From a virus: a stretch of DNA of 64,000 nucleotides. Below the pieces are notes generated by a model. That model was not told the DNA's origin, searched no databases, and saw only the letters and a list, made by a program, of their open reading frames with translations. A program made the position numbers and the translations under genes. The stretch lies in the IMG/VR virus record IMGVR_UViG_3300045988_162015; one strand, 5' to 3'. The stretch's first letter is position 1; every line of letters begins with the position of its first letter. Below are positions 13,918-49,822 of this stretch, piece by piece.

Positions 13918-14313
13918 ATGTATGATTTTTATGATCGTCTGATGAAGGGTGAATCCGCAGAGGATATTGCCAAGAGCATCACTGATGAACTGAACAAGGC
14001 ACAGGCCAAGAGAACAGAAGAATTGAAGGCTCAGGCCGAAAAGTCCAAGAGAGATCAGACAATGGCAGCGGATGCAGAGGTTATCTGCACTGGCCTGATG
14101 AAGTTTGCAAAGGATTATTATGGCTATGATATTGAGGTCAAGCCGGAAGACCTGATGAAGGTTTTTGATATGGCTGATAAGATTGGCCGTGCCATTGAAG
14201 ACCTTGGTAAGACGGTTGAGAAGCCTGCTGAAAAAGTAAAGGCTAAGGTATACAAGGTCAATGGCTCTGCTGATGAAGTCATTGATAAGTTCCTTGATAT
14301 GATGGGGTGGTAA
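13918..14313 (+). CDS. hypothetical charged/coiled protein (131 aa)
   Basis: AGAGGTAATATACATATG RBS. Confidence 0.5.
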   Translation: MYDFYDRLMKGESAEDIAKSITDELNKAQAKRTEELKAQAEKSKRDQTMAADAEVICTGLMKFAKDYYGYDIEVKPEDLMKVFDMADKIGRAIEDLGKTVEKPAEKVKAKVYKVNGSADEVIDKFLDMMGW

Positions 14314-14342
14314 GGAAAAGGGCATATGCCCTTTTCTTTTTA
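14314..14342 (+). terminator. rho-independent terminator (end of the early region)
   Basis: AAAGGGCATATGCCCTTTT followed by CTTTTT. Confidence 0.6.
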
Positions 14343-14678
14343 GCCTGAAATGGAAATTTTTGGAAAGTCAAATTTGACTTTTATAAAAAAATATGATATA
14401 ATATTAAAAAAAGATATAATTGCATTAGGGTAGAGATTATTTGTTATCGGTCGATATAGCAATAATAGGGGTGCCACTGGTGCAGTAGGGGCACACCCAC
14501 TTCTCAGTTTAGCACTATTTTAATACAATTTAATACAATTTTTTTTAGAATTTTCCACAATCTACATAATATAATTTAATATATCTTATATTATATTTTT
14601 TTACATTATTTCAATATCTTACTTTATATTACATTATTTCTCTTACTAATAAGTAGACTAATACACAATTAGTCTACT

Positions 14679-15311
14679 TTATTTATACCTAAATGGCTAT
14701 AATCTACCAGCTATATTTCCACAAGGTTTATATAATAAAATTAACGCAAACTCTATTGTTTTTAAATCAGTAGATGTTATATTCCTATCACACTATAAGT
14801 CTTCTCCTCTTATAATTGATTTAAATTCAATACTATCTCTCTGCTCATTTAATAATTTATATACATATAAACTATTACTATGATTTTTGATATTTCTTTT
14901 ATGTTCATTCCATCTCTTATTAAAATCAACAGTACTACCTATATAAATTAACTATCCATTTCTATATATACCATATACTCCACCATTACATACCTATGAT
15001 ACATTTCTTTTAGACTATCTTTCAAGTAATTTTCGTCTTTCTTCCTACTATCTTATAACCATAGCATCAAATTCATCTTTGGTTCCAAACCAATTATAAT
15101 ACTTCTATTTATAGGTCCAATAAGGTTTAGTTAATTTTTTCTAATCTTCTAAACATATCTCTTTATAATTATCTGGAACTATCATAGCTATATACTCTCG
15201 ATCTAACCAATCATTATACTTACTAAATGATGATAATGGTTCTAACGTTCTATAGATATTTAACAAATTCTCACGATTCTATAACTTCATATTAAATTCA
15301 TAATTTTTCAT
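14679..15311 (-). CDS. GIY-YIG homing endonuclease (210 aa), with 9 in-frame TAG codons
   Basis: Translated by hand from the minus strand: ...GVYGIYRNGQLIYIGSTVDFNKRWNEHK... carries the GIY-YIG motif. The reading frame is open only if TAG is treated as a sense codon. Confidence 0.6.
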
Positions 15312-15394
15312 TTTGTTTTTTCCTTTCAATTTTCATTTCATTTCTCAAAATATTTCTTTACAGCTACTAAGCCCACACTGCCACAGAGGAAATA

Positions 15395-15690
15395 CCCCGT
15401 TTTGTCCTATTATGGCCCGAATGGGACATAATAGGACAATTATGTTATGTTCGATGTCCTGAATAGGACAAATCGGACAGGACATTTTCTTTCTTCAGCT
15501 TTTGTCGCATTTGTCGCATTTGTCCTAAATTAAATCATTTTGCTAATTTTTTTAGATTTTTATTTAGTTATGTCGCATTTGTCCTATCAGCATTTTAATA
15601 CTTTCATTTAAAAATAGGACAAAACTCATTTGTCCCATTCAAGACAAATGTCTGCTTTTGTCTCATTTGTCGCATTTGTCCTATAAGTTC
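15395..15690. repeat. iteron cluster (TTTGTC[G/C][C/T]A direct and inverted repeats), putative origin of replication
   Basis: At least 12 copies of TTTGTCGCA/TTTGTCCTA/TAGGACAAA. Includes the palindromes TGTCCTGAATAGGACA and TTGTCCTATTATG...CATAATAGGACAA. Confidence 0.55.
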
Positions 15691-16147
15691 CATTTAATAC
15701 CTTCTAGGCCAATTCAAATATCTATGGAGCTTTATATTCTACTCTATCTAATGCTCTAGTGCTAATCTTCTAACCAAAAATTTTAAAATAAGCATCAGCT
15801 GCTTGCTATTTAGTAGGAACTCCATTTTTATCTTTAGTGGCTTTTACTATTGCTTTTTCTATATCTTCTTTATATATTCTCTACTATGCACCACCAGCTG
15901 CTCCTGCTTCTGCCTTCTATTTACTAACTTCTTTAGACTTATCAATAGTAAGTTTCATAGACTATAATAACATCATAATAATTCCATAATCTTTATCATT
16001 CTCATCAGGTTCAATACCATACAATCCATAATTAGTTAATGCACTATATAATTTATATTTTAATTCTACATCTTCATTCTATTCAATAGTTTCTCTCATA
16101 TTAGCCCAGAAGGTAAATTTGTCTTTATTCGGCTTTTCAACTGCCAT
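15626..16147 (-). CDS. replication initiator/replisome-organizer-like protein (N-terminal domain; 173 aa; 9 in-frame TAG)
   Basis: Minus-strand ORF with a GGAGGTAATTATTTATG RBS. The sequence ...LKYKLYSALTNYGLYGIEPDENDKDYG... resembles the N-terminus of Firmicute phage replication proteins. This resemblance is recalled from memory and unverified. The 3' end runs into the iterons. Confidence 0.4.
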
Positions 16148-16153
16148 AAATAA

Positions 16154-16336
16154 TTACCTCCTTTGAGCTTCAACAAAATCCCTCATAAAATCATCATCAA
16201 CCTTAAATATCCAGCAATTATATTCAGGATATTTGGGATTAGGCATAGTCTATATAGGGAAATGACCATTCTCCACCAACTTTTCCATAACAGCTAATGA
16301 ATAAATAATCATATTTTTATTTTGTTCTTTGTTCAT
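16154..16336 (-). CDS. small hypothetical protein (60 aa; 1 in-frame TAG)
   Basis: MNKEQNKNMIIYSLAVMEKLVENGHFPI(Q)TMPNPKYPEYNCWIFKVDDDFMRDFVEAQRR. Coupled to the downstream gene. Confidence 0.4.
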
Positions 16337-16342
16337 TTTGTA

Positions 16343-16495
16343 TTACTTCTCCTTATCCATATATTCTTTAATGGCTTTTCTAATCAATTGCGAAACACTC
16401 ATATCATTTTCTTTGCAGAATTCATCAATACGTGCCTTCTCTTCATCCTTAACACGAGTCGCAATATTATGATAGCCTTCACGTTTACTTGGCAT
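16343..16495 (-). CDS. ribbon-helix-helix (Arc/CopG-like) DNA-binding protein (50 aa)
   Basis: MPSKREGYHNIATRVKDEEKARIDEFCKENDMSVSQLIRKAIKEYMDKEK shows the typical RHH pattern. Below the 60-aa track cutoff. Confidence 0.55.
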   Translation of the reverse strand: MPSKREGYHNIATRVKDEEKARIDEFCKENDMSVSQLIRKAIKEYMDKEK

Positions 16496-16714
16496 ATATA
16501 TATTCTCCTTTTCTTTTATTAATCTACTATATATAAAAATTAAATCAATATCCTTAACCGCGGTGGCCCAAAAAATTTTAAGTAATTTATAACAAGTTTA
16601 ATTGATATAAGTTGAAATAAAAATATACCTATTAGTTTTATAAATAGTGGAAAAATATAAAAATTTTTGATAAAATATATATAAGATAAAAGATAAGAAA
16701 GGAAAATCTCTTAA

Positions 16715-17182
16715 ATGCCAAATTATCGTGAACAGAATGGCGAAGTTGGTAGCTACAACAACCTAAAAGTCTGGGTCCTTAATGGTGAAGAATTCCAAAA
16801 GAGACTACTCACCAAGGGCGGACTTAATGCTACTACCATTTACTGCCTTAAAGAATATGACCCTTATCACAAGCTGCTGCCCGACTGCATGTACGCTTAT
16901 ATGATTAACCCTAATGACCGCGACAACCTCTACTGCCTTGGCACTATGGGCAATTATGGAAAAGTGAATTTCAAGAAAAATATTGCCGCGTGCGAAAAAT
17001 TCTCACTTGCTCCTAAGCCTGTTCCTAAAACCACATTTGAAGTAGATACCACTAACTATGGCGACGCACCTACTCTTACAACCATTGACGCCATTCTTGC
17101 CGATATCCAGAAGTGGAATACAAAGATTGATTATGCAGATTATACTAAAACAGTAGACAAATACTTGGAGGCCCTCGCATGA
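16715..17182 (+). CDS. hypothetical protein (155 aa)
   Basis: AAGAAAGGAAAATCTCTTAAATG RBS. First gene of the plus-strand AT-rich block. Confidence 0.5.
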   Translation: MPNYREQNGEVGSYNNLKVWVLNGEEFQKRLLTKGGLNATTIYCLKEYDPYHKLLPDCMYAYMINPNDRDNLYCLGTMGNYGKVNFKKNIAACEKFSLAPKPVPKTTFEVDTTNYGDAPTLTTIDAILADIQKWNTKIDYADYTKTVDKYLEALA

Positions 17183-18669: not shown

Positions 18670-20019
18670 ATGGATATTAATCACTGTGGTTATATTGTAA
18701 AAGTTAAAGAGCTGCGGAAGCACCCTAATGCAGACAAGCTCTACATCGCAACTTTCTTCGGCAATGACACTTGCGTTTCCATTGATACGCAGGTTGGCGA
18801 TATTGGTGTCTACTTCCCCTGCGACCTCCAGCTTTCCCTCGAATTTTGCATCGCCAATCATCTGTGCCGCAAGCTTCCTGATGGGACTGCTGACACTGGT
18901 TATATGGAAGTAGATAAGCGTAATATCACCGCTATTAGACTGCGTGGCGAACGTTCTGATGGTCTGTATCTACCGATTAGCTGTTTCAATTATTGCTATG
19001 ACGATGATGCAAGTGCTTATCTAAAGGTGGGTGACATTATCAATGAAGTTAATGGTCATCCTATCTGCAATAAGTATATTCCGCGTACTCGTAAGCAGAA
19101 TAATACTAATAACTCTAATGTAAGCAAGACTCGCAAGCATAAAGATCCGATTGCTCCTCTGTTCAAGGAACATATTGATACTGCCCAGCTTGCTTATAAT
19201 CTCAGTGCATTTAATCCTGGTGACCTTATTGAAATCACTCGTAAGCTCCATGGCACTTCTGCACGAATCGGCTATCTGCCTGTTCTTAAGGGTTATAAGC
19301 GTACTCTGTGGGATAAGATTACTCGTAAAGATGGCAAACCTATCTATCAGTATGATTACATTGACGGCACTCGCCGTACTCTGCTGACTGGCTATGATGG
19401 CGGCTTCTATGGTTCTAATGAATTCCGTAAGCATTTCCATGAAGCAATCGAAGGTAAGCTGCATGAGGGCGAAACCTGTTATGCAGAAATCGTAGGTTTT
19501 ACTGACGATGGCACGCCGATTATGGGTTCTGTCTCTAATAAGAAGACCAATGATAAGGCATTTATTAAGCAGTATGGTGATATGACTACCTTCTCTTATG
19601 GCTGCGACCCTACTGGTGTTACTGCTCCGAAGAATGATTTTTATGTTTATCGTATGACTCTAACTACTCATGATGGTTATACTGTGGAATATTCTCCTGA
19701 ATATACTCGGTATCGTTGTGAGCAGATGGGCGTGAAATTCGTTCCTGTTGAATGGCGTGGCTATATCCCCGAGCATCCGGCATCTGAAAATGATGATACT
19801 ATCACCGCAGGCGAATGGATTATGAACAAGGCAGAACAGTATTATGATGGTCCTGAGCCGATTGATCCGCGACATGTGCGTGAAGGTGTTGTTGTGCGTC
19901 TGGTTGATAAGCCTTCATTTACTGCTTATAAAATTAAAAATTTTTCATTCAAACTAATCTCCGGCATTGCGGTTGCTGATACTACTCCAGTAGATGAAAC
20001 AATCGCGGAGGAACTGTAA
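18670..20019 (+). CDS. tRNA-binding-domain (Myf/CsaA-like OB fold) fused to an Rnl2-family RNA ligase
   Basis: N-terminus IVKVKELRKHPNADKLYIATF...DIGVYFPCDL...RLRGERSDGLYL is tRNA-binding-domain-like. Ligase motif I is KLHGTS, motif IV is EGVVVR and motif V is YKIKN. Confidence 0.65.
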   Translation: MDINHCGYIVKVKELRKHPNADKLYIATFFGNDTCVSIDTQVGDIGVYFPCDLQLSLEFCIANHLCRKLPDGTADTGYMEVDKRNITAIRLRGERSDGLYLPISCFNYCYDDDASAYLKVGDIINEVNGHPICNKYIPRTRKQNNTNNSNVSKTRKHKDPIAPLFKEHIDTAQLAYNLSAFNPGDLIEITRKLHGTSARIGYLPVLKGYKRTLWDKITRKDGKPIYQYDYIDGTRRTLLTGYDGGFYGSNEFRKHFHEAIEGKLHEGETCYAEIVGFTDDGTPIMGSVSNKKTNDKAFIKQYGDMTTFSYGCDPTGVTAPKNDFYVYRMTLTTHDGYTVEYSPEYTRYRCEQMGVKFVPVEWRGYIPEHPASENDDTITAGEWIMNKAEQYYDGPEPIDPRHVREGVVVRLVDKPSFTAYKIKNFSFKLISGIAVADTTPVDETIAEEL

Positions 20020-25828: not shown

Positions 25829-26986
25829 ATGAGTTATTTATTTACCAGTGAGAGCGTTTTTGCCGGTCACCCTGATAAGGTTTGTGATTAGGTAAGTGAT
25901 GCTATTCTGGATTATGTCCTCCAGCTTGATCCTGATGCACGAGTAGCTTGTGAATGTACTATTAGCCCAGGTCTTTTCCATATCATGGGAGAGATTACAG
26001 CTAAAACAGAACAATCTATTCCTTATCAGGAAATTGCAAGAGAGACTTTAAGATTTATTGGTTATGACAATGATGAAGCAGGATTTAACTGTGACACTTG
26101 TTCATATATTATTAATGTAGTAAATCAATCTCCTGACATCGCTGCGGGTGTTGATAGGGATGGTGCTGGCGACCAAGGCATGATGTTTGGTTATGCAACC
26201 AATGAAACAGAAAATTATATGCCTATTGCCCAGCAGCTTGCTAATAATATCTCGGTCATTATGTTCAGCAAGTATAAGAATGATTTGCTACCTTGGGCAT
26301 TACCTGATGGTAAATGTCAGATAACTGTCCAATACGATGATAATGGTAACTTTGAAGGGGTAGATACAATTGTCGTATCGGCCCAACACAAAGACAAGTA
26401 TAGTATTAAGGAAATAACACCCGATATTACGAACATTTGTAATATTGCCCTTCAAGGTTATGCCATTAAAAAAGATTGTAAATTTTATATTAACCCAACA
26501 GGTAAGTTTGTAGAGGGCGGACCTGCGGCTGATACTGGATTAACTGGACGTAAAATTGTCGTAGATACATATGGTGGCTACGCTCCGCATGGTGGTGGAG
26601 CATTCAGTGGCAAAGACCCCAGTAAGGTAGACCGTAGTGGTGCATATATGGCACGTTATGTAGCTAAAAATCTTGTAGCTTCTGGCGTTTGTGATAAATG
26701 TATGATTCAAGTTGCTTATATTATTGGGCAGACAGAACCTGCATCTATTGATATTAATTGTTTTGGCACAGAAAAGAAACCTATTGCTGAAATTCTTGAA
26801 GCAGTTAATCAAACATTTGATTTTGCACCGCGTAGTATTATTCATAAATTTGATTTAAAGCATACTCGTTATCTGCCCTATGCTTGCTTCGGTCATTTTG
26901 GTCGCATTGAATGCAATAGTCCTTGGGAACAACTTGATAAAGTAGACGAATTAAAAACAATTTTTAATTTTGAAAAGGAGAACTAA
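25829..26986 (+). CDS. metK: S-adenosylmethionine synthetase (MetK), with an in-frame TAG at 25889 that aligns with a conserved Gln
   Basis: LFTSESV..GHPDKVCD[TAG]VSDA aligns with E. coli MetK HPDKIADQISDA. The motifs GAGDQG, DTYGG and GGAFSGKDPSKVDRS are also present. Confidence 0.9.
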
Positions 26987-32458: not shown

Positions 32459-34123
32459 ATGACAGATTTGAGGACTCTTATTCCAGAAGAAGAAAAGAAT
32501 CTGCTGCACGATTATATTAAAGAGTACCTTCATTCTGATAATTACTGTACTGTAGATGAAATTAATCATCTTCTGCGGTTTTGGGCTGCCGAAAAGCCTG
32601 ACCTGTATAAGCTGCTGGGCAACAATCTGATGGTTAAAGACCATATTGCTTATCAGGCATCTGAAGAGGATTTGATGGATAAGTTCAGTGAAATGTATGA
32701 AGAAATTTATAATAATCCTGAATTAGCAAACGTTAAAAAATTCATTGACTCTTACGAGCAGATTACTAATATTTATTATTCTTGGATGGATGCCACTCTT
32801 GATAAGGATGAACGGGCTATGTGTTGTAGCATGATTGAGCATTGCCTTGATAGTGAATCTCTCGTGGCCAATAAAAATGTGTATATGTTTGATTGGGGTC
32901 GCAAATCTGTTACTATTCGCCGTGGTCCGCATGCAGATACTTCAAAGCCGCTTGAACTGAAGAGTGATATGAAGTTGATGCGAATGATGGCTAAAATTGT
33001 CGATTGGTTTGAGTTGGACAAAGAAGCATTTGAGCAGTTTCGTATTCTTCATTCGCGTGTTTTGAATGATCGTATGATTAATGCTGATATTGTACTATCT
33101 ATTCATCCGCTTGATTATCTTACTATGAGTGACAATGCTTGTGATTGGGAGAGCTGTATGAACTGGTATCAGGGTGGCGATTATCGTCTTGGTACTGTTG
33201 AAATGATGAATTCTCCTGTCATCCTTGAAGCATATGTTGAATCCGAGCATCCTTATTGTCCCATTGACCGTGACAAAAGGACTTGGAGCAATAAGCGTTG
33301 GCGGTGTCTCTATATTGTTAATAGGGATATCATTACTGAAATCAAGCAGTATCCTTATAATAACATTTATCTGCGTGACTATGTGCTGAATAAGATTAAG
33401 CAGTTGGCTGAACAGAATATGGGTTGGCATTATGATGAAAAGATGTACGAGGTTTGGCAGAATCAGCCTAATGATACTGATTTTGGTCAGGTTTATATTC
33501 GCATGAGGACTGGAGCTATGTATAATGATTATTATGATAATCATTATGCTTATATCAATCCAGAAGTCAAAGAAGTAGAAGTTTACTATTCTGGTGTAGC
33601 TGAATGTATGTGTTGCGGCAAAGGCTACGAAGCTGATCCGAGTGGAAATGTAGATGCATTTGTAGAATGTGATAAAGTCGTATGTGCAACCTGCGAAGGC
33701 AAAGTACAGTGCGATGATTGTGGTTCTTGGATTGATAGTGAAGATGCTTGGTTTTGTAGTGAAGATGGGGCAACATATTGTAGCTGGTGTGCAGAGGGCC
33801 GCACCCAGATTTGTAGCTGCTGCGGAGAAACTAAATGGCTTGATTATGATTTCAAGAAGCAGGCTCTTCCCTATATGTTTGAAGTAAAAACTCCTAATGG
33901 TAAGCATCGTCGAGATGTTGGAAATCCGATTGATGTTTGCGATGATTGTTATGAAGACTATGATTTCGATGATGTACCGAAGGAGCCAGACCCGTGGGGC
34001 GATTTTCAGTATATTGATGTTGACAAGGTAGATAGGAAGGTATGGGAGCCATTTCTGTCCCTTGAAAGAATTGCTGATGCCAAGGAACGGTTAAAGGCAA
34101 CTTACCCTAATGATTATGTTTAG
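32459..34123 (+). CDS. large Cys-rich protein, family member A (HPLDYLTMSDN...WESCMNW core plus C-terminal CxxC zinc-ribbon repeats)
   Basis: 554 aa. Paralogous to 40422..42065 and 44661..45983. Confidence 0.55.
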   Translation: MTDLRTLIPEEEKNLLHDYIKEYLHSDNYCTVDEINHLLRFWAAEKPDLYKLLGNNLMVKDHIAYQASEEDLMDKFSEMYEEIYNNPELANVKKFIDSYEQITNIYYSWMDATLDKDERAMCCSMIEHCLDSESLVANKNVYMFDWGRKSVTIRRGPHADTSKPLELKSDMKLMRMMAKIVDWFELDKEAFEQFRILHSRVLNDRMINADIVLSIHPLDYLTMSDNACDWESCMNWYQGGDYRLGTVEMMNSPVILEAYVESEHPYCPIDRDKRTWSNKRWRCLYIVNRDIITEIKQYPYNNIYLRDYVLNKIKQLAEQNMGWHYDEKMYEVWQNQPNDTDFGQVYIRMRTGAMYNDYYDNHYAYINPEVKEVEVYYSGVAECMCCGKGYEADPSGNVDAFVECDKVVCATCEGKVQCDDCGSWIDSEDAWFCSEDGATYCSWCAEGRTQICSCCGETKWLDYDFKKQALPYMFEVKTPNGKHRRDVGNPIDVCDDCYEDYDFDDVPKEPDPWGDFQYIDVDKVDRKVWEPFLSLERIADAKERLKATYPNDYV

Positions 34124-34149
34124 TTTAAATTCTTGCCAAAATTGAATAC

Positions 34150-34195
34150 TCGAAAATTTATAAAAAATTTGATATAATATATATAGAAAGGATGG
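34150..34195. promoter_or_regulatory. phage promoter motif
   Basis: ATTTATAAAAAATTTGATATAATATATATAGAAAGGATGGGAG. Confidence 0.4.
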
Positions 34196-36419: not shown

Positions 36420-37226
36420 ATGAATTATCATTCTGATAAATGGGTTATGGATAAGGTAGAAACTCATTTAGAAGCAGCTAATGTTAAGGGAGAAAATTGG
36501 GTTAGCTTAATGGCTTATGGTAGTCAGAATTATGGTCTTGATACTCAATCGTCTGATGTAGATACACGGCTTATTGTTCTTCCTTCATTTGAAGATATTG
36601 TATTAAATAAGAAGCCAGTATCTTATACCAAGGTTCTTCCTAATGAAGAGCATATTGATTTTAAGGATATTCGTTTGTTCATTGATTGTTTGAAGAAACA
36701 GAATATGGCTTATCTTGAATGCATCTTCACGTCTTATAAAATGGCATCAAGCACGTATTGGAATGAGTGGCAGGCACTGCTTAATGAGCGTGAAGCTATT
36801 GCACGCTATAATCCTTACAAGGCAGTTAAGACAATGAAGGGTATTGCTATGGAAAAATATCATGCAATGGAACATAGATATCCTACTAAAACTCATCTGA
36901 TTGATACATATGGTTATGATAGCAAGCAGCTTATGCATCTGCTTCGTATTGAAAGATACCTTGGACGTTATATTGATGGTGTTAAATATGCAGATTGTCT
37001 TCAAGCCCCAATGGGTGATTATCTTCTTAATGTAAAAAATTATCATTATGATCTTGAAACTGCACGAATTGTAGCCAATACTGCTATTAGTAATATTACA
37101 AGAGTAGCTGATGATTATTGTTCTAAGACTAAGGACGAAGGCAATGAAGAGCTTGAAGATTTTATGAATAAAGTTATTTATATTATTATGAAAAAAAGAA
37201 TTGTAAAGGAAATGTTAGATGTCTGA
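36420..37226 (+). CDS. Pol-beta-superfamily nucleotidyltransferase
   Basis: YGSQNYGLDTQSSDVDTRLIV is the G[SG]x(9-13)DxD nucleotidyltransferase signature. Confidence 0.55.
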   Translation: MNYHSDKWVMDKVETHLEAANVKGENWVSLMAYGSQNYGLDTQSSDVDTRLIVLPSFEDIVLNKKPVSYTKVLPNEEHIDFKDIRLFIDCLKKQNMAYLECIFTSYKMASSTYWNEWQALLNEREAIARYNPYKAVKTMKGIAMEKYHAMEHRYPTKTHLIDTYGYDSKQLMHLLRIERYLGRYIDGVKYADCLQAPMGDYLLNVKNYHYDLETARIVANTAISNITRVADDYCSKTKDEGNEELEDFMNKVIYIIMKKRIVKEMLDV

Positions 37227-37423: not shown

Positions 37424-38248
37424 ATGTTCAAGGACTGGGTTGTCCGAGGCGATTGTCATGGCGATTTCACATGGCTTAACGCAAGAATGTTTAAAATTTT
37501 AAATCCAAAAGACTACGCAATTATTATCCTTGGTGATGTAGGTTTTAATAGTGGCAATACATTCAGGGATGATATGAAGAAAAAGTATGCAAGCCAGTTT
37601 GGATATTCTATCTATTGCGTGCGTGGCAATCACGAGGTACGTCCTGAAAATGTTGAAGGTATGGAGCGTATTTGGGATAGTAATGTCCAAGCTAACGTAT
37701 GGTATGAGCCGGCCTACCCTCTGATTAGGTATTTTGACAATTATGGTATCTATTATCTTAAAACAGAAGATAAAGAATATCGCACATTGGTAATTTGCGG
37801 TGCTTATTCTATTGATAAATATTATCGCCTTAAAAATAATCTGCTCTGGTGGAAAGATGAGCAGTTGACTGATACAGAAAAATCAGAAGTAGAGAGACTT
37901 ATTCGGCAGACTAACAAGCATTTTGACCTTGTGCTCTCGCACACTTGCCCTTATTCATGGGAGCCAAGAGATTTATTTTTACCTTGTGTGGACCAATCTA
38001 CTGTTGATAACAGTATGGAATTATGGTTAGAAAATATAGAAAAAGATATAGATTGGAACATTTGGCTTTGGGCACATTTTCACTGTGATAGAATTCAAGG
38101 CCCTCATTGTGAAATTTTTTATAACAATATAGATTTTCTTTCTGAAATTTGGGATAGATGGAATAATAATGATAAAGAAAGAAAAGATAGAATGAAAAAA
38201 AGTTTAGTTTTTTTCATTGAAAATAAATGGTCCAAAGAGTTTAAATAA
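37424..38248 (+). CDS. calcineurin-like metallophosphoesterase (lambda Ser/Thr-phosphatase-like)
   Basis: Motifs RGDCHGDF (GDxHG), ILGDVGFN (GDxxxRG-like) and VRGNHE (GNHE). Confidence 0.65.
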   Translation: MFKDWVVRGDCHGDFTWLNARMFKILNPKDYAIIILGDVGFNSGNTFRDDMKKKYASQFGYSIYCVRGNHEVRPENVEGMERIWDSNVQANVWYEPAYPLIRYFDNYGIYYLKTEDKEYRTLVICGAYSIDKYYRLKNNLLWWKDEQLTDTEKSEVERLIRQTNKHFDLVLSHTCPYSWEPRDLFLPCVDQSTVDNSMELWLENIEKDIDWNIWLWAHFHCDRIQGPHCEIFYNNIDFLSEIWDRWNNNDKERKDRMKKSLVFFIENKWSKEFK

Positions 38249-40421: not shown

Positions 40422-42065
40422 ATGACACCTTATGAAGCATTAACGGCACAAGATAAGAAATATATTACTGAATATATTGAAACATGGGGTGGCGTTAATT
40501 CCCCTATTAAACTCAAAGCATCTCTTGATTATATCCTTCGAGAATGGAATAAGAGTAAACAAACTCTATTTAATATTTTTGGCGAAAAGTTAATGCTGGA
40601 GAAGGAAATCCAGGTTGAAGATGGAGATAATAAAAAAGTAAGAGAAGTTAATGAGTATCTCTATAGCACTAATCCTGGTATCAATTTTATTACAAATCTT
40701 CGTAGATTATTTGAATCTGATACTACTTATTTTGAAAATACTTATGCAACAAGGCATGCAATATATAATTTAATTCAAGCTTATCAACTTTTTACTAATA
40801 GAGTTGTTAAAGGATTTACTTATCACAATAAAGATGGTAAAGTAGTTAAAGTTCCAGAAGGAGCTAAGGTAATGAAAGTTCTTCAGAAAATGGCTAAAGA
40901 ATTTGATTTGCCTGATTTTGAAATTTTTCGCAATCATGTTTCACGTATTACTGAAGTACGTAAATCTAAAATTAAGTTTACATTATCTATTCATCCCTTG
41001 GATTATATGACTATGAGCGATAATGTAAATGGTTGGGAAAGTTGTATGAACTGGACTCAAGGGCCAGGCTCCTATCGTGCTGGTACTATTGAGATGATGA
41101 ACAGTCCTGTGGCTGTTGTAGCTTATATTACTACTAAGCCTTATTATCCAGCAAATACTTCAATTGAATGGACTTCCAAGAGTTGGAGAGAATTGATTAT
41201 TGTTCATCCAAATGCTATTTGTTCTGTAAAATCTTATCCTTATTACAATATTGCATTTGATAAAGCTCTTGTTAATTGGCTTGCTAATTTGGTTGAAGAA
41301 AAAACTGAATGGCGTTATAACAGAAAAAAGCCACAAGAAAGTTTAGATAGTTGTTCTTATATCGAAGCTTGGCAAGATAAAGAAGATGAAGATAATCATT
41401 TCCTGTTGGATTTTGAAACAAATGAAATGTATAATGATTTTGGTAATACAGAGAATTATGGAATTTTTTCAATTAATCCACCAGACAATAAATATCGTAC
41501 ATTCGCAATTAATTATTCTGGTTTAATGACTTGTATGTGCTGCGGCGGAAAAGATTATTGGGATGATGATACTGAAGCAGTTGTTTGCGAAGAATGCGAC
41601 CCACCTGAGTATTGTTATTGCTGTGGCGAACGAATTAATGCAAGTAATTCAATTGAAGTAGATGGCGAATTAGTTTGTGAAGATTGTTATCATGATTTGC
41701 CTAGATGTATGTGTTGTGAAGATGCTCATTTTGAGGATGATGTTACTCCGGTATTCGTTGGACACATCGATAATCAAACTATTAATATTGACTATGATGA
41801 GCATTATATTTGCAACGAATGTCTTGCCAATAAAGAATTGCCGAAATATCTTGATGATTCTAACGTTAGGACTAAAATAACTAAATTAGATGGCGGTCCT
41901 TATTATGGTAGGACAGCTCTCTTGATTGAAGAAGATGATTTAGATGTAGAAGCTAAAAAGATAATTTCTAATGATCCTTATTCTACTATAATTACTGATT
42001 ATACTTATGCTATTCGTCGTTATCCTGAACGTTTTTATAGTTACAATACATCAATCGCAATTTAA
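40422..42065 (+). CDS. large Cys-rich protein, family member B (HPLDYMTMSDN...WESCMNW plus C-terminal zinc ribbons)
   Basis: 547 aa. Paralog of 32459..34123. Confidence 0.55.
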   Translation: MTPYEALTAQDKKYITEYIETWGGVNSPIKLKASLDYILREWNKSKQTLFNIFGEKLMLEKEIQVEDGDNKKVREVNEYLYSTNPGINFITNLRRLFESDTTYFENTYATRHAIYNLIQAYQLFTNRVVKGFTYHNKDGKVVKVPEGAKVMKVLQKMAKEFDLPDFEIFRNHVSRITEVRKSKIKFTLSIHPLDYMTMSDNVNGWESCMNWTQGPGSYRAGTIEMMNSPVAVVAYITTKPYYPANTSIEWTSKSWRELIIVHPNAICSVKSYPYYNIAFDKALVNWLANLVEEKTEWRYNRKKPQESLDSCSYIEAWQDKEDEDNHFLLDFETNEMYNDFGNTENYGIFSINPPDNKYRTFAINYSGLMTCMCCGGKDYWDDDTEAVVCEECDPPEYCYCCGERINASNSIEVDGELVCEDCYHDLPRCMCCEDAHFEDDVTPVFVGHIDNQTINIDYDEHYICNECLANKELPKYLDDSNVRTKITKLDGGPYYGRTALLIEEDDLDVEAKKIISNDPYSTIITDYTYAIRRYPERFYSYNTSIAI

Positions 42066-43581: not shown

Positions 43582-44580
43582 ATGGGTAAAAAAGTTTTAG
43601 TTCCTGAGTTTACTGAAAATTGTAGAGGGCTTTTGGAAGGGCTATTCAAGATTAGTGAAGTAGGTCTTTTGAAAGCTCTTGGTGATTTTGTATCTAATAA
43701 ATATTCTAATGTAGAGATTACAGAAGATTATGTATATGCTGAAGGCAATATTCCTGTAATGCTTATCGCACACGTAGATACTGTATTTAGACAGCCAATT
43801 CGTCAATTTACTTATAATGAAAAAAGAGCTGTTTATAAAGGCAAGGAAGGTCTTGGAGCAGACGATAGAGCAGGTGTTTTTGCGATTATTCAGATTTTAC
43901 GCAAAAAGTATAGACCTTATGTTCTTTTTACAACAGATGAAGAAATGGGTGGCTATGGGGCACATATATTTGTTGAAGAGCATCCAGTAGCTCCAAATAT
44001 TAAGTACATGATTGAGCTTGATAGAGCTGGGGAAAGAGATTGTGTCTTCTATGAGTGTGAAAATTTTACATTCATGGATTATGTTGAAAGTTTTGGATTT
44101 AAGCAAGCAATTGGATCATTTACAGATATTAGTATTATTATGCCTGAATGGGAAATTGCCGGAGTAAATTTATCAGTTGGCTATCATCATGAACATACTC
44201 AAAATGAAGATTTGCATATTAGAACATTGTATAATACAATTAATAAAGTATGTAAAATGCTTGATGATATCGAAAATGCAGATAAATATAAGTTTATTCC
44301 CAGCAAGGAATATCTTCAGTGGATTACATTAACTAATAAATATCATATGCCTTATGATTTTGATGATGATAAACTTCTTAATTGTAGTTTTTGTAATCAG
44401 TTGTATTATGAGTGGGAAGATTTTCCTCTTGATATTGATGGAGTAAAGGTCCATGTATGTCCTGAATGCTTGGCTCTTGACCCTAATATTCATCAATGTG
44501 AAAAATGTTATAATTTATTTTATTCAAATAATATGAAAGAAAGAGTATGTAATAAATGTCGAGTCCCTGTTGTAATTTAA
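43582..44580 (+). CDS. Zn-dependent peptidase (M20/M28/M42-like) with a C-terminal zinc ribbon
   Basis: IAHVDTV, GADDRAG, EEMGGYG and HHEHT fit the metal-ligand pattern of co-catalytic Zn peptidases. The C-terminus carries CxxC...CxxC. Confidence 0.5.
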   Translation: MGKKVLVPEFTENCRGLLEGLFKISEVGLLKALGDFVSNKYSNVEITEDYVYAEGNIPVMLIAHVDTVFRQPIRQFTYNEKRAVYKGKEGLGADDRAGVFAIIQILRKKYRPYVLFTTDEEMGGYGAHIFVEEHPVAPNIKYMIELDRAGERDCVFYECENFTFMDYVESFGFKQAIGSFTDISIIMPEWEIAGVNLSVGYHHEHTQNEDLHIRTLYNTINKVCKMLDDIENADKYKFIPSKEYLQWITLTNKYHMPYDFDDDKLLNCSFCNQLYYEWEDFPLDIDGVKVHVCPECLALDPNIHQCEKCYNLFYSNNMKERVCNKCRVPVVI

Positions 44581-44660
44581 ATGAACTTAAAGAACAAGTA
44601 AAGAAGGTTATTGCCTATTCATAGGGGCTGGACATTAACCTTTTAAATATTGATAAATTA

Positions 44661-45983
44661 ATGAATGATTGGGAAGAGAATAAATGCAAATTTTATAGTA
44701 GGCTTCCTGGTAATAAATTAATTTATCAAAGTCATACACCTATTACAATGTCTATTTCAGAAGATGATAAAAAAGCTGAATTAGATTGTTTTATTGACAA
44801 CATTCGTTGGCGTTATGGCTTATTTGAATTAAGAGATTTTGTTGAAAATAATAGAAAAAATTTTTATAATAATATTTTAAGCGAAGATTATTCAATGAAT
44901 AATGGAACTATCATTCCAAAAGGAATGAAAATAATTAAAGCATTTAAATATTTTGTAGAAGATAAGGAAATTCTTACTGAAATACAAGATAAGGCTAGTA
45001 TGCTTATTCAAAACACAAAAATTAGTGGATATTTTTGTATGTCAGTTCATCCATTGGATTATCTTAGTTTAAGTGAAAATACACATAACTGGCGGTCATG
45101 CCATGCACTTGATGGAGAATACCGTGCTGGTAATTTATCTTATATGGCAGATAATTGTACAATTATATGCTATATTAAGAGTGAACATAATGCGGTTTTA
45201 CCTAGATTCCCAGATGATGTACCATGGGCAGATAAGAAGTGGCGTATGCTTCTTCATGTATCTGATGATGATACTATGGTTATTTCAGGCCGGCATTATC
45301 CTTATGAAAGTAAAGGATTGCAAGATTTTGCTCTTGAATTATATGAAACATTTTTCGGGCAAGGATACCGTTTTACTGATTGGTGTCATGAAAAATATAA
45401 TACATTTACAATAAATGATAAAATCTTTTCTAATGATAGCCGTTTATTGCCTACTGGATATGTAATGACTCCAGATATTAAGGTTATTGTTGACCCAAAA
45501 AATCCTTTACATTATAATGACCCTCTTCATTCTACTGTATATGACTATTGGTTTAGTATTGCTTATAGTGAACCTTATTGGCATGAAGAAGGTATTCCGC
45601 AAGATAAATTAATTCTTCCAAGAACTCGTACCACTACTAAAGTTAATATAGGACATGATGTAAAATGCTGTATTTGTGGTAAAAATGATTGTGTTTTAAC
45701 AGATACGATGCTTTGTATTGATTGTGAACTTAAATATGGTACAGAAGAAACAGAAGATTTTACTTTCTGCAGAGGATGCGGTAGACGTATTTATATTCCT
45801 GAAGCAATATCATTAGATGATGATGATGGTTATGTATGCCGCAGTTGCGGAGACAATTATTAGATATGTGATAATTGTAATATGTATTATGATAAAAAAG
45901 ATTTAATTTATGATGAAGAAAACAATGCTTACTACTGTGAAGCTTGTTATGATGAAATTTTATTTGATAGGGAGAATGAATAA
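44661..45983 (+). CDS. large Cys-rich protein, family member C (HPLDYLSLSEN...WRSCHAL plus zinc ribbons), with an in-frame TAG at 45861
   Basis: The frame continues past the TAG into 41 more codons of CxxC ribbons (ICDNCNMYY...CEACYDE), which matches the C-termini of paralogs A and B. Confidence 0.5.
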
Positions 45984-46398: not shown

Positions 46399-46680
46399 AT
46401 GAAGAAGATTATAATTCCTCAAGAAGAAGTAAATTATCTTTAGAAATTAAATTATGAAATTGAAGCTAGAAAAAATTTATGTCAATTTTTAATTAGACAA
46501 AATATTAGAAATAAAGCTTTTGATGATTATCATAATGAGTATATAGAATTATTTGCTGAATATGAATTAGCTAAATTAGAATTAGAAAATAATTATATTA
46601 AACCAGTAATTGGAAATCAAACTTGTAATTGGAATTTAGATTTTTAGACAAACGAGGTAAATATTGATGTTATTTCCTAA
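46399..46680 (+). CDS. small protein upstream of the radical SAM gene (93 aa; 2 in-frame TAG); possible peptide-recognition partner
   Basis: AAGAAAGGAATAAAAATATG RBS. Overlaps the radical SAM start by 14 nt. The function is a guess. Confidence 0.35.
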
Positions 46681-48007
46681 GATAATTAATATTCCTGAAG
46701 AATTTTCTGATTTTATAAGTCGTTTATATTCTAATGATTGCTTAAATTCTTAGGCTGTATTTACATTAACTTTTTAGGTTACAGATGATTGTTGTCTAAA
46801 TTGTGTTTATTGTTATCAAGGACATAAAGGAAAACATAAATTATCCTTTAATACAGCTAAATAGATGATTGATTAGATACTAACAAGAGACAATAAAGTT
46901 ATTAATTATATTGATTCTTATAAAATACCAGGAGTAGTAATAGAATTTATAGGTGGAGAGCCATTTTTAGAAATTGAATTAATTGATTAGATTACTGATT
47001 ATTTTATTAATAAAATGATTGAATTGCGGCATCCTTGGGCCACTAAATATAAAATTTCAATTAGTTCTAATGGTATTTTATATTTTGAACCAAAAGTACA
47101 AGAGTATATTAAAAAAAATAATGAAAATTTAAGTTTATCAATTTCTATTGATGGAAATAAAAAATTACATGATGCTTGTAGAGTTTTCCCTGATGGTAGT
47201 GGTAGTTATGATAAAGCATTGTCTGCTGCATTACATTATAGCCATAATTATAATAAATGGATTGGGAGTAAAATGACTATCTCTCCATTTAATATAGATT
47301 ATTTATATGACGCTGTTTTAGAAATGATAAACAATGGTTATAATCAAATCAATCTAAATTGTGTGTATGAAAAAGGTTGGGAACTTAACCATGCCACTAC
47401 ATTATATTATTAGTTAAAAAAAATTGCTGATTATTTATTAAATAATGATTTGTGGGATAAAGTTTATTTATCTATTTTTTATATTAATGATGGAAGTAAA
47501 AATTTATCTAATGATAATTGGTGCGGCGGGAATGGTCGTATGTTAGCCTTAAATTGGAAAGGTAAATATTATCCCTGTTTACGTTATATGGAAGATAGCA
47601 TAAGTAATCAGCCAGAATATTATATTGGAGATATTTATTAGGGAATAGGCCAAGATAATTTAACCATCAATAGATTAAAAGATTTATCTGAAATAACAGT
47701 TATTAGTCAATCTCCTCAAGAATGTTTAGATTGTGAAATTTCTGGAGGATGCTCTTGGTGTACAGCTTATAATTATCAAGAAACAGGTAATGTTAATAAA
47801 AGAGTTACTTATATTTGTGATATGCATTATGCTACAGTTCTAGCTTCTTTATATTATTTAAATTCTATTTTAAAAAAAATAAACTCGAATAAACGATTTA
47901 AATTTAATGGAGATATGGAAAAAGCATTAAAAATTATCTCTTAGGATGAATATAATATAATAAAGGAGGCAATGACAAATGAAAATAGGAACGACAATAA
48001 CTTCTGA
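46667..48007 (+). CDS. radical SAM/SPASM-domain peptide-maturase-like enzyme (446 aa; 9 in-frame TAG)
   Basis: Cx3Cx2C motif DDCCLNCVYCYQG. GGEPFL glycine-rich motif. SISSNG and SISIDG motifs. C-terminal SPASM cysteines CGGNG...YYPC and CLDCEISGGCSWC. Confidence 0.75.
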
Positions 48008-49747: not shown

Positions 49748-49822
49748 GGGGTCGTGGCCAAGCGGTAAGGCCGACAACTTATAATTGTCAAATCGTTGGT
49801 TCGAACCCAACCGGCCCCACCA
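49748..49822 (+). tRNA. tRNA-Ile (anticodon UAU)
   Basis: Cloverleaf GGGGTCG/CGGCCCC. Anticodon loop CTTATAA. T-loop TTCGAAC. Encoded CCA. Confidence 0.7.

What the first reader, a model, noticed from the sequence alone, without database searches (positions are those of the whole stretch)
14340..16700. Hidden minus-strand AT-rich module invisible to the ORF track: RHH regulator, replisome-organizer-like protein, iteron array and GIY-YIG endonuclease
This 2.3 kb stretch looks gene-empty in the six-frame track because every minus-strand ORF is interrupted by TAG. Manual translation gives a compact, translationally coupled operon (16495 down to 14679) in the order RHH protein, 60-aa protein, replication-protein-like ORF, then GIY-YIG endonuclease. 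A dense array of TTTGTCGCA/TTTGTCCTA iterons and palindromes lies at 15395-15690, starting inside the 3' end of the replisome-organizer-like ORF at 15626 and continuing downstream of it. An iteron array inside or beside a replication initiator gene is a classic phage or plasmid origin. The block sits exactly at the boundary between the early region and the recoded regions. It may also be a mobile insertion carried by the endonuclease.
Basis: seen in the sequence. Interest (0 to 1): 0.7.

Follow-up and report, generated by a model that had tools for sequence, protein, structure and literature searches.

The report
TAG-gated phage replication-origin cassette
A hidden four-gene operon in a roughly 188-kb gut-type phage that reads TAG as glutamine encodes a small repressor, a DUF6291 DNA-binding protein sitting on about 19 of its own binding-site repeats, and a GIY-YIG nuclease; it is most likely a replication origin with its initiator, and it can be translated only after the phage changes the genetic code.

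Summary
With TAG read as Gln, the minus strand of 14679-16495 encodes four genes:
- a ribbon-helix-helix (RHH) protein;
- a 60-aa protein (ORF B);
- a 173-aa DUF6291 protein with a C-terminal helix-turn-helix (HTH)-like domain, here called the organizer;
- a 210-aa GIY-YIG nuclease.

Nineteen GACA-core 9-bp repeats lie in 15403-15684. They start inside the last 19 codons of the DUF6291 gene.

The cassette keeps this order in eight related loci, whose contigs reach 121-214 kb. Three more distant, standard-code relatives keep the DUF6291-like gene plus a GGGACA array without the nuclease. An unrelated 38-kb TAG-recoded contig has the same five-part layout with a different repeat, TTGCAA.

The protein's C-terminal domain co-varies with the repeat sequence. 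Its N-terminal domain, the RHH protein and ORF B stay nearly invariant.

Elsewhere, DUF6291 genes sit directly upstream of DnaB helicase or DnaC-like loader genes, or are fused to DnaD-type domains. An initiator-plus-iteron origin is therefore the best reading (about 0.6). It is not proven.

The block is a TAG island inside about 25 kb of TAG-free genes, not a boundary. It is also not a sporadic mobile insertion, although a 1.4-kb segment inside it is swapped between near-identical backbones.

I rate it a new variant of a known kind.

The parts
16496..16714 (.). Divergent control region between the RHH operon (minus strand) and the plus-strand gene that starts at 16715. It holds a conserved block 16500-16625 with the unique GC island GGGCCACCGCGGTTAA (16554-16569, minus strand), a candidate RHH operator.
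   Evidence: The alignment of six loci is nearly invariant here. The motif is unique in the window. Assignment as promoter or operator is inference.
16343..16495 (-). RHH (CopG/Arc-type) protein, 50 aa, no TAG. It is the only product of the operon that can be translated in the standard code.
   Evidence: Pfam RHH_1, 29.1 bits against 20.5. PHROG transcriptional repressor. 94-100% identical in eight related loci.
16153..16335 (-). ORF B, 60 aa, one TAG at codon 29. A small conserved partner protein, distantly DUF5659-like.
   Evidence: 88-100% identical in relatives. Homologues lie directly upstream of the organizer gene in L018 and L017. The L019 counterpart fits an ORF B profile only weakly (13.8 bits). 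The L019 copy scores 17 bits to DUF5659, below the cut-off. The window copy hits no family.
15626..16147 (-). Organizer/initiator candidate, 173 aa, 9 TAG. It has a DUF6291 N-terminal domain (residues 10-84, nt 15896-16120), a Gly-rich linker, a four-helix HTH-like C-terminal domain (residues 93-151, nt 15695-15871) and a tail encoded by iterons.
15401..15684 (.). Iteron array of 19 GACA-core 9-bp units, consensus AT(A/G)(G/C)GACAAAT on the minus strand. Direct triplets lie at 15501-15527 and 15657-15683, a doublet at 15569-15586, and inverted copies at 15422, 15432, 15464 and 15615.
   Evidence: The same order and orientation of units is seen in L001, L011, L012, L005 and L013.
15528..15568 (.). 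AT-rich spacer between the iteron doublet and triplet. It is one candidate DNA-unwinding element.
   Evidence: The 40-bp stacking energy is -39.8 kcal/mol against a window mean of -48.4 with sd 4.8. An equivalent AT-rich gap is present in relatives.
15627..15650 (-). Hairpin made of two inverted iterons across the organizer stop codon, followed by a T-run. It is a possible attenuator or roadblock ahead of the nuclease gene.
   Evidence: Terminator-like hit on both strands. Conserved in L001-L003. The function is inference.
14679..15311 (-). GIY-YIG nuclease, 210 aa, 10 TAG. Residues 1-105 are an N-terminal domain of unknown type. Residues 110-205 are the catalytic domain.
   Evidence: Pfam GIY-YIG, 27.4 bits against 22.6. 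Y113 is nearly invariant, and Y123, G125, R133, H137, E187 and N199 are invariant across 13 homologues. The closest solved relative is T4 endonuclease II (2wsh, E 9.6e-6), followed by I-TevI.
14651..14679 (+). 12-bp hairpin abutting the nuclease stop codon. Its T-run is on the plus strand, so it looks like a terminator for transcripts coming from the promoter at 14374.
   Evidence: L005 and L013 carry a different hairpin whose T-run is also on that strand.
14515..14650 (.). The least stable, AT-rich DNA of the region, with loose 10-11-bp repeats. It is a second candidate unwinding element and belongs to the lineage-variable segment.
14346..14510 (+). Conserved non-coding unit. It holds TGGAAA-N5-TGGAAA, the palindrome GTCAAATTTGAC (14367-14378), a promoter-like TTGACT-17-TATAAT (14374-14402) and a conserved stem/hairpin (about 14434-14500). 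It may encode a plus-strand small RNA or activate the origin by transcription.
   Evidence: 93-98% nt identity to L005 and L013 where the adjacent proteins are 36-64% identical. No Rfam match.

Best explanation
This is the conserved replication-origin cassette of a roughly 188-kb phage that reads TAG as Gln.

Shown directly:
- An operon in the order RHH, ORF B, DUF6291/HTH protein, iteron array, GIY-YIG nuclease.
- About 19 GACA-core 9-bp repeats that overlap the 3' end of the DUF6291 gene and run 230 bp beyond it, with an AT-rich gap between clusters.
- Strict conservation of this layout in relatives.
- TAG supplying 20 of 24 Gln codons (83%) across the three TAG-bearing genes, while both flanks have none.

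Inferred:
1. The RHH protein has no TAG and is made at once. It autoregulates the operon through the conserved GGGCCACCGCGGTTAA region, like CopG in a copG-rep operon.
2. ORF B, the organizer and the nuclease can be completed only once TAG is decoded as Gln. The cassette therefore fires after the code switch.
3. The organizer's variable C-terminal HTH domain reads the iterons.
4. The organizer's invariant DUF6291 N-terminal domain oligomerises, or recruits a helicase or loader, and opens an adjacent AT-rich segment.
5. The GIY-YIG enzyme is an accessory, time-gated nuclease and is not needed for the core function. It may be an EndoII- or Seg-like weapon against host or competitor DNA, or it may process DNA at the origin.
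For: (a) The repeats are non-random: 10 of the window's 11 TTTGTCSYA sites lie in 283 bp, and 0 of 100 shuffles reach 11. GACA density is ten times that of the flanks.

(b) The array follows the gene everywhere.
- It sits at the same place, with the same order and orientation of units, in L001-L003, L005 and L011-L013.
- Distant standard-code homologues carry GGGACA arrays that overlap the 3' end of their genes (L006, L017, L018).
- In L019 all 11 TTGCAA hexamers of a 10.4-kb locus lie in the 184 bp after the organizer-like gene.

(c) Specificity covaries. The C-terminal domain drops to about 30% identity exactly where the repeat changes from GGACAAAT to GGGACAT. The N-terminal domain stays 95-98% identical there, and RHH and ORF B stay 98-100%.

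(d) The DUF6291 family sits in replication modules.
- Directly upstream of DnaB_C helicase genes (L009, L016).
- Directly upstream of an IstB/DnaC-like loader gene (L007, L008).
- In an ERF/SSB module (L015).
- Fused to DnaB_2 (DnaD-type) or Phg_2220_C domains.
- BFVD neighbours are named 'DnaD domain protein' and 'putative replisome organizer'.

(f) There is a precedent. SPP1 gp38 binds direct repeats of oriL inside its own gene, next to an AT-rich unwinding element (PMC6316719).

(g) TAG stands for Gln. The Q62 column is Q in 10 of 11 distant homologues, three of them confirmed standard-code, and it aligns with a TAG.

(h) TAG density. TAG supplies 20 of 24 Gln codons (83%) in the three TAG-bearing genes, 0 of 143 in the flanks and 4-26% in the later regions. 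High TAG use in the organizer and nuclease genes is conserved in relatives.
Against: - No helicase, loader, primase or polymerase gene lies next to the cassette. None was found among the 15 large window ORFs scanned.
- GC skew is positive on both sides of the locus. The only inflection matches the strand-inverted genes, so there is no bidirectional-origin signature.
- DnaA boxes are not enriched: 22 found against 25 expected.
- The protein hits neither Phage_rep_org_N nor any solved initiator.
- No DUF6291 protein has been characterised; no paper in the library mentions the family.
- The AT-rich spacer inside the array is not the least stable DNA nearby.
- Heavy TAG use would make this a late-acting function, which is unusual for a primary origin.
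Confidence: 0.6

Rival explanations
1. The cassette is a non-replicative regulatory or DNA-organising module. The DUF6291/HTH protein would be a transcription factor, silencer or centromere-binding protein. The array would be its operator or centromere-like site, acting for example as a late-phase switch, a roadblock controlling the nuclease gene, or a partition site.
For: - The C-terminal domain resembles repressor HTH domains.
- Some family members carry sigma-70 region 4 or LuxR-type HTH domains.
- An inverted iteron pair forms a terminator-like hairpin at the stop codon, ahead of the nuclease gene.
- RHH proteins also serve partition systems (general knowledge).
- There is no adjacent replisome gene and no skew switch.
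Against: - No ParA or ParM-type ATPase gene is present in the cassette or in any relative.
- DUF6291 genes elsewhere are embedded in replication and recombination modules and are fused to DnaD-type domains.
- Sixteen to 26 sites with an internal AT-rich gap is far more than a promoter operator needs.
- Heavy TAG use argues against a role in a quiescent plasmid state.
Confidence: 0.17
2. The whole block is a selfish mobile insertion, or a homing cassette driven by the GIY-YIG endonuclease. The repeats would be its degenerate ends or target sites.
For: - GC content is 30% against 40-44% in the flanks.
- The block is a strand-inverted island in both the window and L019.
- A 1.4-kb segment (about 15930-14510) is only 44-70% identical between backbones that are otherwise 93-100% identical. 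That pattern resembles co-conversion around homing endonucleases.
- The nuclease gene appears frameshifted in L005.
- Borges et al. describe a preferentially recoded intron endonuclease in Agate phages.
Against: - All eight related loci carry the block at the same site, and no empty site was seen.
- RHH, ORF B, the organizer and the array occur without any GIY-YIG gene in L018. The organizer and array do so in L006.
- The iterons are not terminal repeats flanking the block.
- The nuclease scores below the cut-off for group I intron endonucleases (30.4 against 56.05).
- Its relatives are confined to two phage lineages and always sit in this cassette.
Confidence: 0.08
3. The cassette is a packaging-initiation module. 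The DNA-binding protein would be a small-terminase-like recogniser, the array a pac site, and the nuclease a helper in cutting.
For: - Late, TAG-dense expression would suit a packaging function.
- Pac sites often lie in or beside the gene of their binding protein (general knowledge).
- One weak BFVD match is named 'Terminase' (rank 8, E 0.044).
Against: - No large terminase or portal gene lies next to the cassette in the window or in any relative.
- DUF6291 genes elsewhere lie in early replication modules, not next to terminase genes.
- There is no Pfam terminase hit.
Confidence: 0.05

Closest known systems
Bacillus phage SPP1 gp38 (replisome organizer) with oriL and oriR
   Same: An origin-binding protein whose direct-repeat binding sites lie within its own gene, next to an AT-rich unwinding element (PMC6316719). 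The setting is a phage of Firmicutes type. DUF6291 genes elsewhere occupy the gp38 position upstream of loader or helicase genes.
   Different: There is no sequence-family membership, since Phage_rep_org_N was not hit. No gp39/gp40-like genes are adjacent. An RHH gene and ORF B lie upstream and a GIY-YIG gene downstream. The DNA-reading domain appears to be C-terminal. The genes are TAG-recoded.
Lambda O protein with ori-lambda (iterons inside the O gene)
   Same: The iterons lie in the initiator's coding sequence. Related phages differ in a matched pair of DNA-binding domain and iterons while the partner-interaction domain stays conserved (textbook knowledge). The pattern and 102 matches this.
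   Different: The protein family is unrelated. The domain order is reversed. No P-like loader gene follows.
Plasmid pMV158 copG-repB operon and iteron plasmids (P1 RepA with incC/incA, R6K, F)
   Same: A small RHH repressor is the first gene of the initiator operon. An iteron array lies downstream of the rep gene, as with incA. Sub-threshold hits to plasmid copy-control RHH families were seen (ORF56 family, RepB-RCR_reg).
   Different: The initiator is neither a HUH nuclease nor a winged-helix Rep protein. The element is a large lytic-type phage. TAG density argues against expression in a standard-code carrier state.
T4 endonuclease II (DenA), the Seg endonucleases and I-TevI (GIY-YIG nucleases of phages)
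   Same: The catalytic domain is GIY-YIG with the full Tyr/Tyr/Arg/His/Glu/Asn set. The best solved match is EndoII, 2wsh, at E 9.6e-6, followed by I-TevI at E 0.0023.
   Different: The catalytic domain is C-terminal, behind a 105-aa domain of unknown type. The gene is fixed in a replicon cassette in two phage lineages rather than scattered or inside an intron.
Stop-codon-recoded gut phages (Borges et al., bioRxiv 10.1101/2021.08.26.457843)
   Same: The phage is TAG-recoded with TAG-free early genes. The paper reports a preferentially recoded endonuclease and notes that replication genes are variably recoded.
   Different: Here an origin-type cassette is the most densely recoded stretch of the window, and it sits alone inside a TAG-free region. 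The paper does not describe origins defined by iterons.

Membership tests
Ribbon-helix-helix, CopG family (Pfam RHH_1, PF01402) | Profile match above the curated cut-off across the beta-strand, helix and helix | tested here: met
   29.1 bits against 20.5, residues 14-47. PHROG repressor families also match.
DUF6291 (PF19808) | Profile match above the curated cut-off over the whole 79-position domain | tested here: met
   33.9 bits against 27.2, residues 11-88 on profile positions 2-78. Forty-eight of 61 profile-search relatives also match.
Phage replisome organizer (SPP1 gp38 type; Pfam Phage_rep_org_N) | Sequence match to the N-terminal organizer domain | tested here: not met
   No hit at E <= 0.1 in Pfam, none in NCBIfam and no solved relative by profile.
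Phage replisome organizer (SPP1 gp38 type; Pfam Phage_rep_org_N) | The gene is directly followed by helicase-loader or DnaB-helicase genes | tested here: not met
   Not in this window or its close relatives, where a GIY-YIG gene follows. It is met for other DUF6291 genes (L007, L009, L016).
DnaD/DnaB-type initiation proteins (Pfam DnaB_2, PF07261) | Presence of the DnaB_2 domain | tested here: not met
   Absent from this protein. Present as a fusion partner of DUF6291 in other family members.
Iteron-type replication origin | A cluster of at least three direct repeats of one short unit, beyond chance | tested here: met
   Nineteen GACA-core units including two tandem triplets. Zero of 100 shuffles reach the observed count.
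Iteron-type replication origin | An adjacent AT-rich DNA-unwinding element | tested here: inconclusive
   The spacer 15528-15568 is about 1.8 sd less stable than the window mean. Less stable DNA lies at 14515-14650 and 14382-14421.
Iteron-type replication origin | A cognate initiator gene adjacent, with specificity that tracks the repeats | tested here: met
   C-terminal-domain identity and iteron consensus change together across lineages. A different HTH comes with a different repeat in L019. This is covariation, not binding.
Iteron-type replication origin | Initiator binding and autonomous replication | not testable with these tools
   This needs EMSA or footprinting and an origin-cloning assay.
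Iteron-type replication origin | A GC-skew switch at the locus | tested here: inconclusive
   The skew is positive on both sides, and the dip at 15-19 kb coincides with the inverted genes. Only 64 kb of about 188 kb is visible.
GIY-YIG nuclease superfamily (PF01541) | Profile match above the cut-off, with conserved catalytic Tyr, Tyr, Arg, His, Glu and Asn | tested here: met
   27.4 bits against 22.6. Y113 is nearly invariant, and Y123, R133, H137, E187 and N199 are invariant in 13 homologues.
Group I intron / homing GIY-YIG endonucleases (TIGR01453) | Equivalog or subfamily score above the cut-off; location in an intron or sporadic presence | tested here: not met
   30.4 bits against 56.05. 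The gene is free-standing and present in all eight relatives at one site.

The most novel reading that the evidence does not exclude
The cassette is a second, code-switch-gated origin in which the organizer and the nuclease work together. The DUF6291/HTH protein, bound to the iterons, would position the GIY-YIG enzyme to nick or cut at the origin. That cut would launch rolling-circle or recombination-dependent replication late in infection. The pair would be a two-protein analogue of a HUH Rep initiator, and stop-codon recoding would act as the timer for the switch in replication mode.

Two observations are compatible with this:
- The organizer C-terminal domain, the iterons, the nuclease and the AT-rich DNA are swapped as one 1.4-kb unit between near-identical genomes.
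- The same five-part layout recurs with a different repeat in an unrelated recoded phage.

One observation weakens it. Standard-code relatives keep the organizer and array without the nuclease.
Probability: 0.1. Interest if true: 0.8.

Novelty: new variant of a known kind. Interest (0 to 1): 0.55.

Why it matters
- It gives a concrete, testable function to DUF6291, a phage protein family with more than 1200 detected members and no mention in the paper library searched. The proposed function is an origin-binding replication organizer with an exchangeable DNA-reading domain.
- It offers a defined protein-DNA pair in three or four natural specificity variants, which suits binding studies.
- It shows that in a TAG-recoded phage the densest use of the reassigned codon can fall on a replication-type cassette and a nuclease, not only on structural and lysis genes. 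If confirmed, the code switch would time DNA replication or DNA cutting as well as lysis.
- It shows that standard-code gene calling hides whole functional modules in such genomes.

Tried and rejected
- Rfam over the window and over 14250-16800 at E <= 1 found only tRNAs and chance microRNA matches. No known RNA lies in the cassette.
- ARAGORN found no CTA suppressor tRNA in the window.
- DNA and tblastn searches of 50,697 GenBank phage records found nothing useful. One 45-bp DNA hit appeared, and there were no protein hits for the organizer or the nuclease.
- Profile searches of PDB sequences with the organizer family found nothing credible.
- The first AlphaFold2 run, with 13 sequences, left the N-terminal domain at pLDDT below 50. 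I replaced it with a 113-sequence run.
I used the 99% identical P0001 instead.
- The afdb50 fold library was not available.
- DnaA boxes are not enriched.
- A scan of 185,579 species genomes found no relative of the close subfamily, so there is no host clue from prophages.
- No paper mentions DUF6291.
- phAss-1 (PMC10607447) was read as a possible relative, but nothing links it to this lineage.
- A toxin-antitoxin reading of RHH plus ORF B was considered and set aside. The pair always precedes the organizer gene, and ORF B is only 60 aa with no toxin-family hit.
- The 46-aa ORF at 15345-15485 inside the array is made of iteron translations and was treated as spurious.
- Consensus folding of the conserved non-coding element gave a plausible long stem but no compensatory changes in four sequences.
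Full report
**1. What is in the sequence**

The window is phage-like DNA with 28-46% GC in 1-kb windows. Nearly all genes lie on the plus strand. The standard-code ORF list shows only fragments between 14.3 and 16.7 kb.

With TAG read as sense, the minus strand gives four ORFs:

| ORF | Coordinates | Length | TAG codons |
|---|---|---|---|
| RHH | 16343-16495 | 50 aa | 0 |
| ORF B | 16153-16335 | 60 aa | 1 |
| Organizer (DUF6291) | 15626-16147 | 173 aa | 9 |
| GIY-YIG | 14679-15311 | 210 aa | 10 |

The other two minus-strand frames of these stretches are full of TAA and TGA.

Three products pass Pfam's own cut-offs:
- RHH_1, 29.1 bits against 20.5.
- DUF6291, 33.9 bits against 27.2, covering residues 11-88.
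- GIY-YIG, 27.4 bits against 22.6, covering the start of the C-terminal half.

ORF B hits nothing.

TAG stands for Gln. The Q62 column is Q in 10 of 11 distant homologues, three of them confirmed standard-code, and it aligns with a window TAG. Database homologues of the recoded lineage also carry Q at all nine positions, although those translations may assume code 15.

**2. The repeats**

TTTGTCSYA occurs 11 times in 64 kb, against about 2 expected, and 0 of 100 shuffles reach 11. Ten of the 11 lie in 15401-15683.

With a GACA core there are 19 units in 15403-15684. That is 46 per kb against 4.6 per kb outside. Their layout is:
- direct triplets at 15501-15527 and 15657-15683;
- a doublet at 15569-15586;
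- inverted copies at 15422, 15432, 15464 and 15615;
- a 41-bp AT-rich gap at 15528-15568.

The triplet at 15657-15683 and the unit at 15629-15637 lie inside the last 19 codons of the organizer gene. This gives the protein its '...RTNATNETK...' tail.

Two inverted units straddle the stop codon and form a terminator-like hairpin.

**3. Comparative evidence**

Exact-protein look-ups and an IMG/VR scan recovered eight related loci: L001-L005 and L011-L013. The longer ones come from contigs of 121-188 kb. Assemblies that carry the same proteins reach 185-191 kb and up to 214 kb.

All eight loci have RHH, ORF B, the organizer, the array and GIY-YIG in that order. Where the flanks are visible, the neighbours are the same. 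No empty site was seen.

Identity is uneven across the cassette:

| Element | Identity to the window copy |
|---|---|
| RHH | 94-100% |
| ORF B | 88-100% |
| Organizer, N-terminal domain | 86-98% |
| Organizer, C-terminal domain | 30-66% |
| GIY-YIG | 36-94% |

The iteron consensus changes with the C-terminal domain:
- AT(A/G)GGACAAAT in the window and L011.
- ATGGGACAAA in L001 and L012.
- ATGGGACAT in L005 and L013, where the C-terminal domain is only about 30% identical.

The order and orientation of the units are kept throughout.

At the nucleotide level the window is 93-100% identical to L013 and L005 from about 17000 to 15950, and mostly 87-100% from 14500 to 13500. Between about 15930 and 14510 the identity is only 44-70%, apart from one 100-bp window at 15301-15400 that reaches 81% in L013. 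So a 1.4-kb segment has been exchanged between near-identical backbones. It comprises the organizer C-terminal domain, the iterons, the nuclease gene and the AT-rich DNA downstream of the nuclease.

More distant homologues use the standard code:
- L006 keeps a GGGACA array that overlaps the 3' end of the gene.
- L017 keeps the same kind of array and has an ORF B homologue directly upstream.
- L018 keeps the array, an ORF B homologue and an RHH gene.

L006 and L018 have no GIY-YIG gene. The L017 contig ends too early to tell.

The only non-lineage relatives of the nuclease lead to L019 and L020, from a 38-kb contig that is also TAG-recoded. The layout there is:
- an RHH gene;
- a 61-aa gene whose product fits an ORF B profile weakly (13.8 bits) and scores below the cut-off to DUF5659;
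- a divergent DUF6291-like protein with an HTH_7 domain (hhalign E 2e-4, probability 45%; HTH_7 25 bits against 23.8);
- a 184-bp array that holds all 11 TTGCAA hexamers of the 10.4-kb locus;
- the GIY-YIG gene.

The five-part design therefore recurs with a different repeat and a different reading domain.

**4. What the organizer is**

A profile search of 1.84 billion representative proteins found 105 relatives. A broader profile found 1270. Most are DUF6291 proteins of about 200-300 aa. Some are fused to DnaB_2 (the DnaD/DnaB C-terminal domain), to Phg_2220_C or to assorted HTH domains.

I inspected five gene neighbourhoods outside the lineage:

| Locus | Setting | Context of the DUF6291 gene |
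|---|---|---|
| L007, L008 | Listeria ivanovii integrated element | int, cI-like, cro-like, xis, DUF6291, then an IstB/DnaC-like loader |
| L009 | 35-kb phage | followed at once by a DnaB_C helicase gene |
| L016 | integrase-bearing element | DUF6291, then a 430-bp gap with 11-bp repeats, then DnaB |
| L015 | phage contig | in a cluster with ERF and SSB |
| L014 | phage contig | no informative neighbour |

This is the position of the SPP1 gp38-type organizer. SPP1 gp38 itself binds direct repeats inside its own gene, beside an AT-rich unwinding element (PMC6316719).

The AlphaFold2 model made with 113 sequences has mean pLDDT 78. It shows:
- a three-helix N-terminal domain (residues 15-84);
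- a Gly-rich linker;
- a four-helix C-terminal domain (residues 93-151).

No solved relative and no publication on the family was found. The protein is not a member of the gp38 family by sequence.

**5. The nuclease**

The catalytic residues are conserved across 13 homologues. Y113 is nearly invariant, and Y123, G125, R133, H137, E187 and N199 are invariant. The closest solved sequences are T4 endonuclease II (E 9.6e-6) and I-TevI (E 0.0023).

The protein falls below the group I intron endonuclease cut-off. The catalytic domain is C-terminal, behind a conserved 105-aa domain of unknown type.

The gene looks frameshifted in L005. It is absent from the standard-code relatives. It is therefore accessory to the organizer-array core.

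**6. Recoding**

| Region | TAG share of Gln codons |
|---|---|
| Organizer and GIY-YIG genes | 19 of 21 (90%) |
| ORF B | 1 of 3 |
| 45 plus-strand ORFs at 1-14.3 kb and 16.7-25.2 kb | 0 of 143 |
| Later parts of the window | 4-26% |

Across the three TAG-bearing genes TAG supplies 20 of 24 Gln codons. The high density is kept in relatives. The RHH gene is TAG-free in four of the six loci counted, and carries one TAG in L001 and L012.

The cassette is therefore a recoded island inside a TAG-free region, not a boundary.

Under the published model, recoded genes cannot be completed before the code switch. That model also records a preferentially recoded endonuclease and variable recoding of replication genes (bioRxiv 10.1101/2021.08.26.457843). 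On that view, only the RHH protein is available early.

No suppressor tRNA lies in this window.

**7. Mechanism proposed**

All steps below are inferred.
1. The RHH protein represses its own operon through the invariant upstream block that contains GGGCCACCGCGGTTAA.
2. After the code switch, ORF B, the organizer and the nuclease are made.
3. The organizer's C-terminal HTH domain reads the iterons.
4. The invariant DUF6291 N-terminal domain, possibly together with ORF B, builds the nucleoprotein complex and recruits a helicase or loader.
5. Melting happens either at the AT-rich gap inside the array or at the very unstable 14515-14650 segment.
6. That segment is approached by a conserved plus-strand promoter-like site at 14374-14402. 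It is bounded by a hairpin whose T-run is on the plus strand.

**8. Evidence against the origin reading**

- No replisome gene is adjacent.
- GC skew is positive on both sides.
- DnaA boxes are not enriched.
- Late gating is unusual for a primary origin.

I therefore put the origin reading at about 0.6. The narrower claim, that the protein and the array are a cognate binding pair, I judge much more likely, at about 0.85. This second figure is my own estimate.

**9. Rivals**

- A non-replicative regulator, silencer or centromere-like site: 0.17.
- A homing or mobile cassette: 0.08 for the whole block. A selfish or exclusion role for the nuclease alone is compatible with the main model.
- A pac-site module: 0.05.

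**10. Verdict**

The cassette is an iteron-plus-initiator replicon of a known general kind, with three new features:
- an uncharacterised initiator family with an exchangeable reading domain;
- a fixed association with a GIY-YIG nuclease in two recoded lineages;
- the highest density of the reassigned codon in the window.

Noticed in passing
window 14346-14510: This non-coding stretch is more conserved than the neighbouring proteins: 93-98% nt identity to L005 and L013. It holds TGGAAA-N5-TGGAAA, the palindrome GTCAAATTTGAC, an 11/12 sigma-70-like promoter with an extended -10 on the plus strand (14374-14402), and a conserved stem/hairpin around 14434-14500. It could encode a plus-strand RNA of about 270 nt that ends at the 14651-14679 hairpin. 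There is no Rfam match, and four sequences show no compensatory pairs.
   Followed up: partly
window 15930-14510, compared with L005 and L013: There are sharp mosaic boundaries: 93-100% nt identity outside and mostly 44-70% inside. The left boundary falls in the linker between the two domains of the organizer. The right boundary falls at the conserved hairpin.
   Followed up: yes
window 49748-55625: An array of 12 tRNA genes (Ile, Phe, Leu x2, Val, Glu, Asp, Ala, Asn, Met, Ser, Trp) contains no CTA-anticodon suppressor, although the phage reads TAG as sense.
   Followed up: partly
window 52598-52686 (+): Rfam finds an 89-nt tRNA-like sequence (31.1 bits against 29) that ARAGORN misses. It has a 16-nt insertion in the anticodon arm and acceptor-stem mismatches. 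It may be a degenerate or intron-bearing tRNA.
   Followed up: partly
window 32459-34177, 40422-42065, 44556-45983 (+): Three proteins of 475-572 aa look like paralogues by eye. They share an 'HPLDY..(M/L)S.N...W.SC....G.YR.G' core and Cys-rich C-terminal parts. The two that were scanned have no Pfam family.
   Followed up: no
window 18670-20019, 36420-37226, 37424-38248 (+): RNA-repair-type genes are present: RNA ligase, an RlaP nucleotidyltransferase and a calcineurin-like phosphoesterase.
   Followed up: no
window 25829-26986, 46667-48007, 50116-51075 (+): The window encodes SAM synthetase, a borderline radical-SAM/SPASM-like protein (8 TAG codons) and a C5 cytosine DNA methyltransferase. 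These hint at DNA or RNA modification by the phage.
   Followed up: no
window 1-25200 compared with 25200-64000: Codon use and composition are split. ORFs at 1-14.3 kb favour CAG for Gln (66 CAG to 24 CAA), and the genes sampled there have 42-44% GC. Later genes use CAA and TAG and fall to 20-35% GC. TAG is never the stop codon of any of the 92 plus-strand ORFs listed.
   Followed up: partly
L007 5205-5294 and L009 5257-5331: Other DUF6291 genes contain tandem DNA repeats in the linker-coding part. AACAACCTAAAA appears in two unrelated elements. These may be origin repeats inside the gene, or just a conserved low-complexity linker.
   Followed up: no
L005 7290-7411: The GIY-YIG gene of this relative needs a frameshift to align with its L013 counterpart. 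It is either a pseudogene or an assembly error.
   Followed up: no
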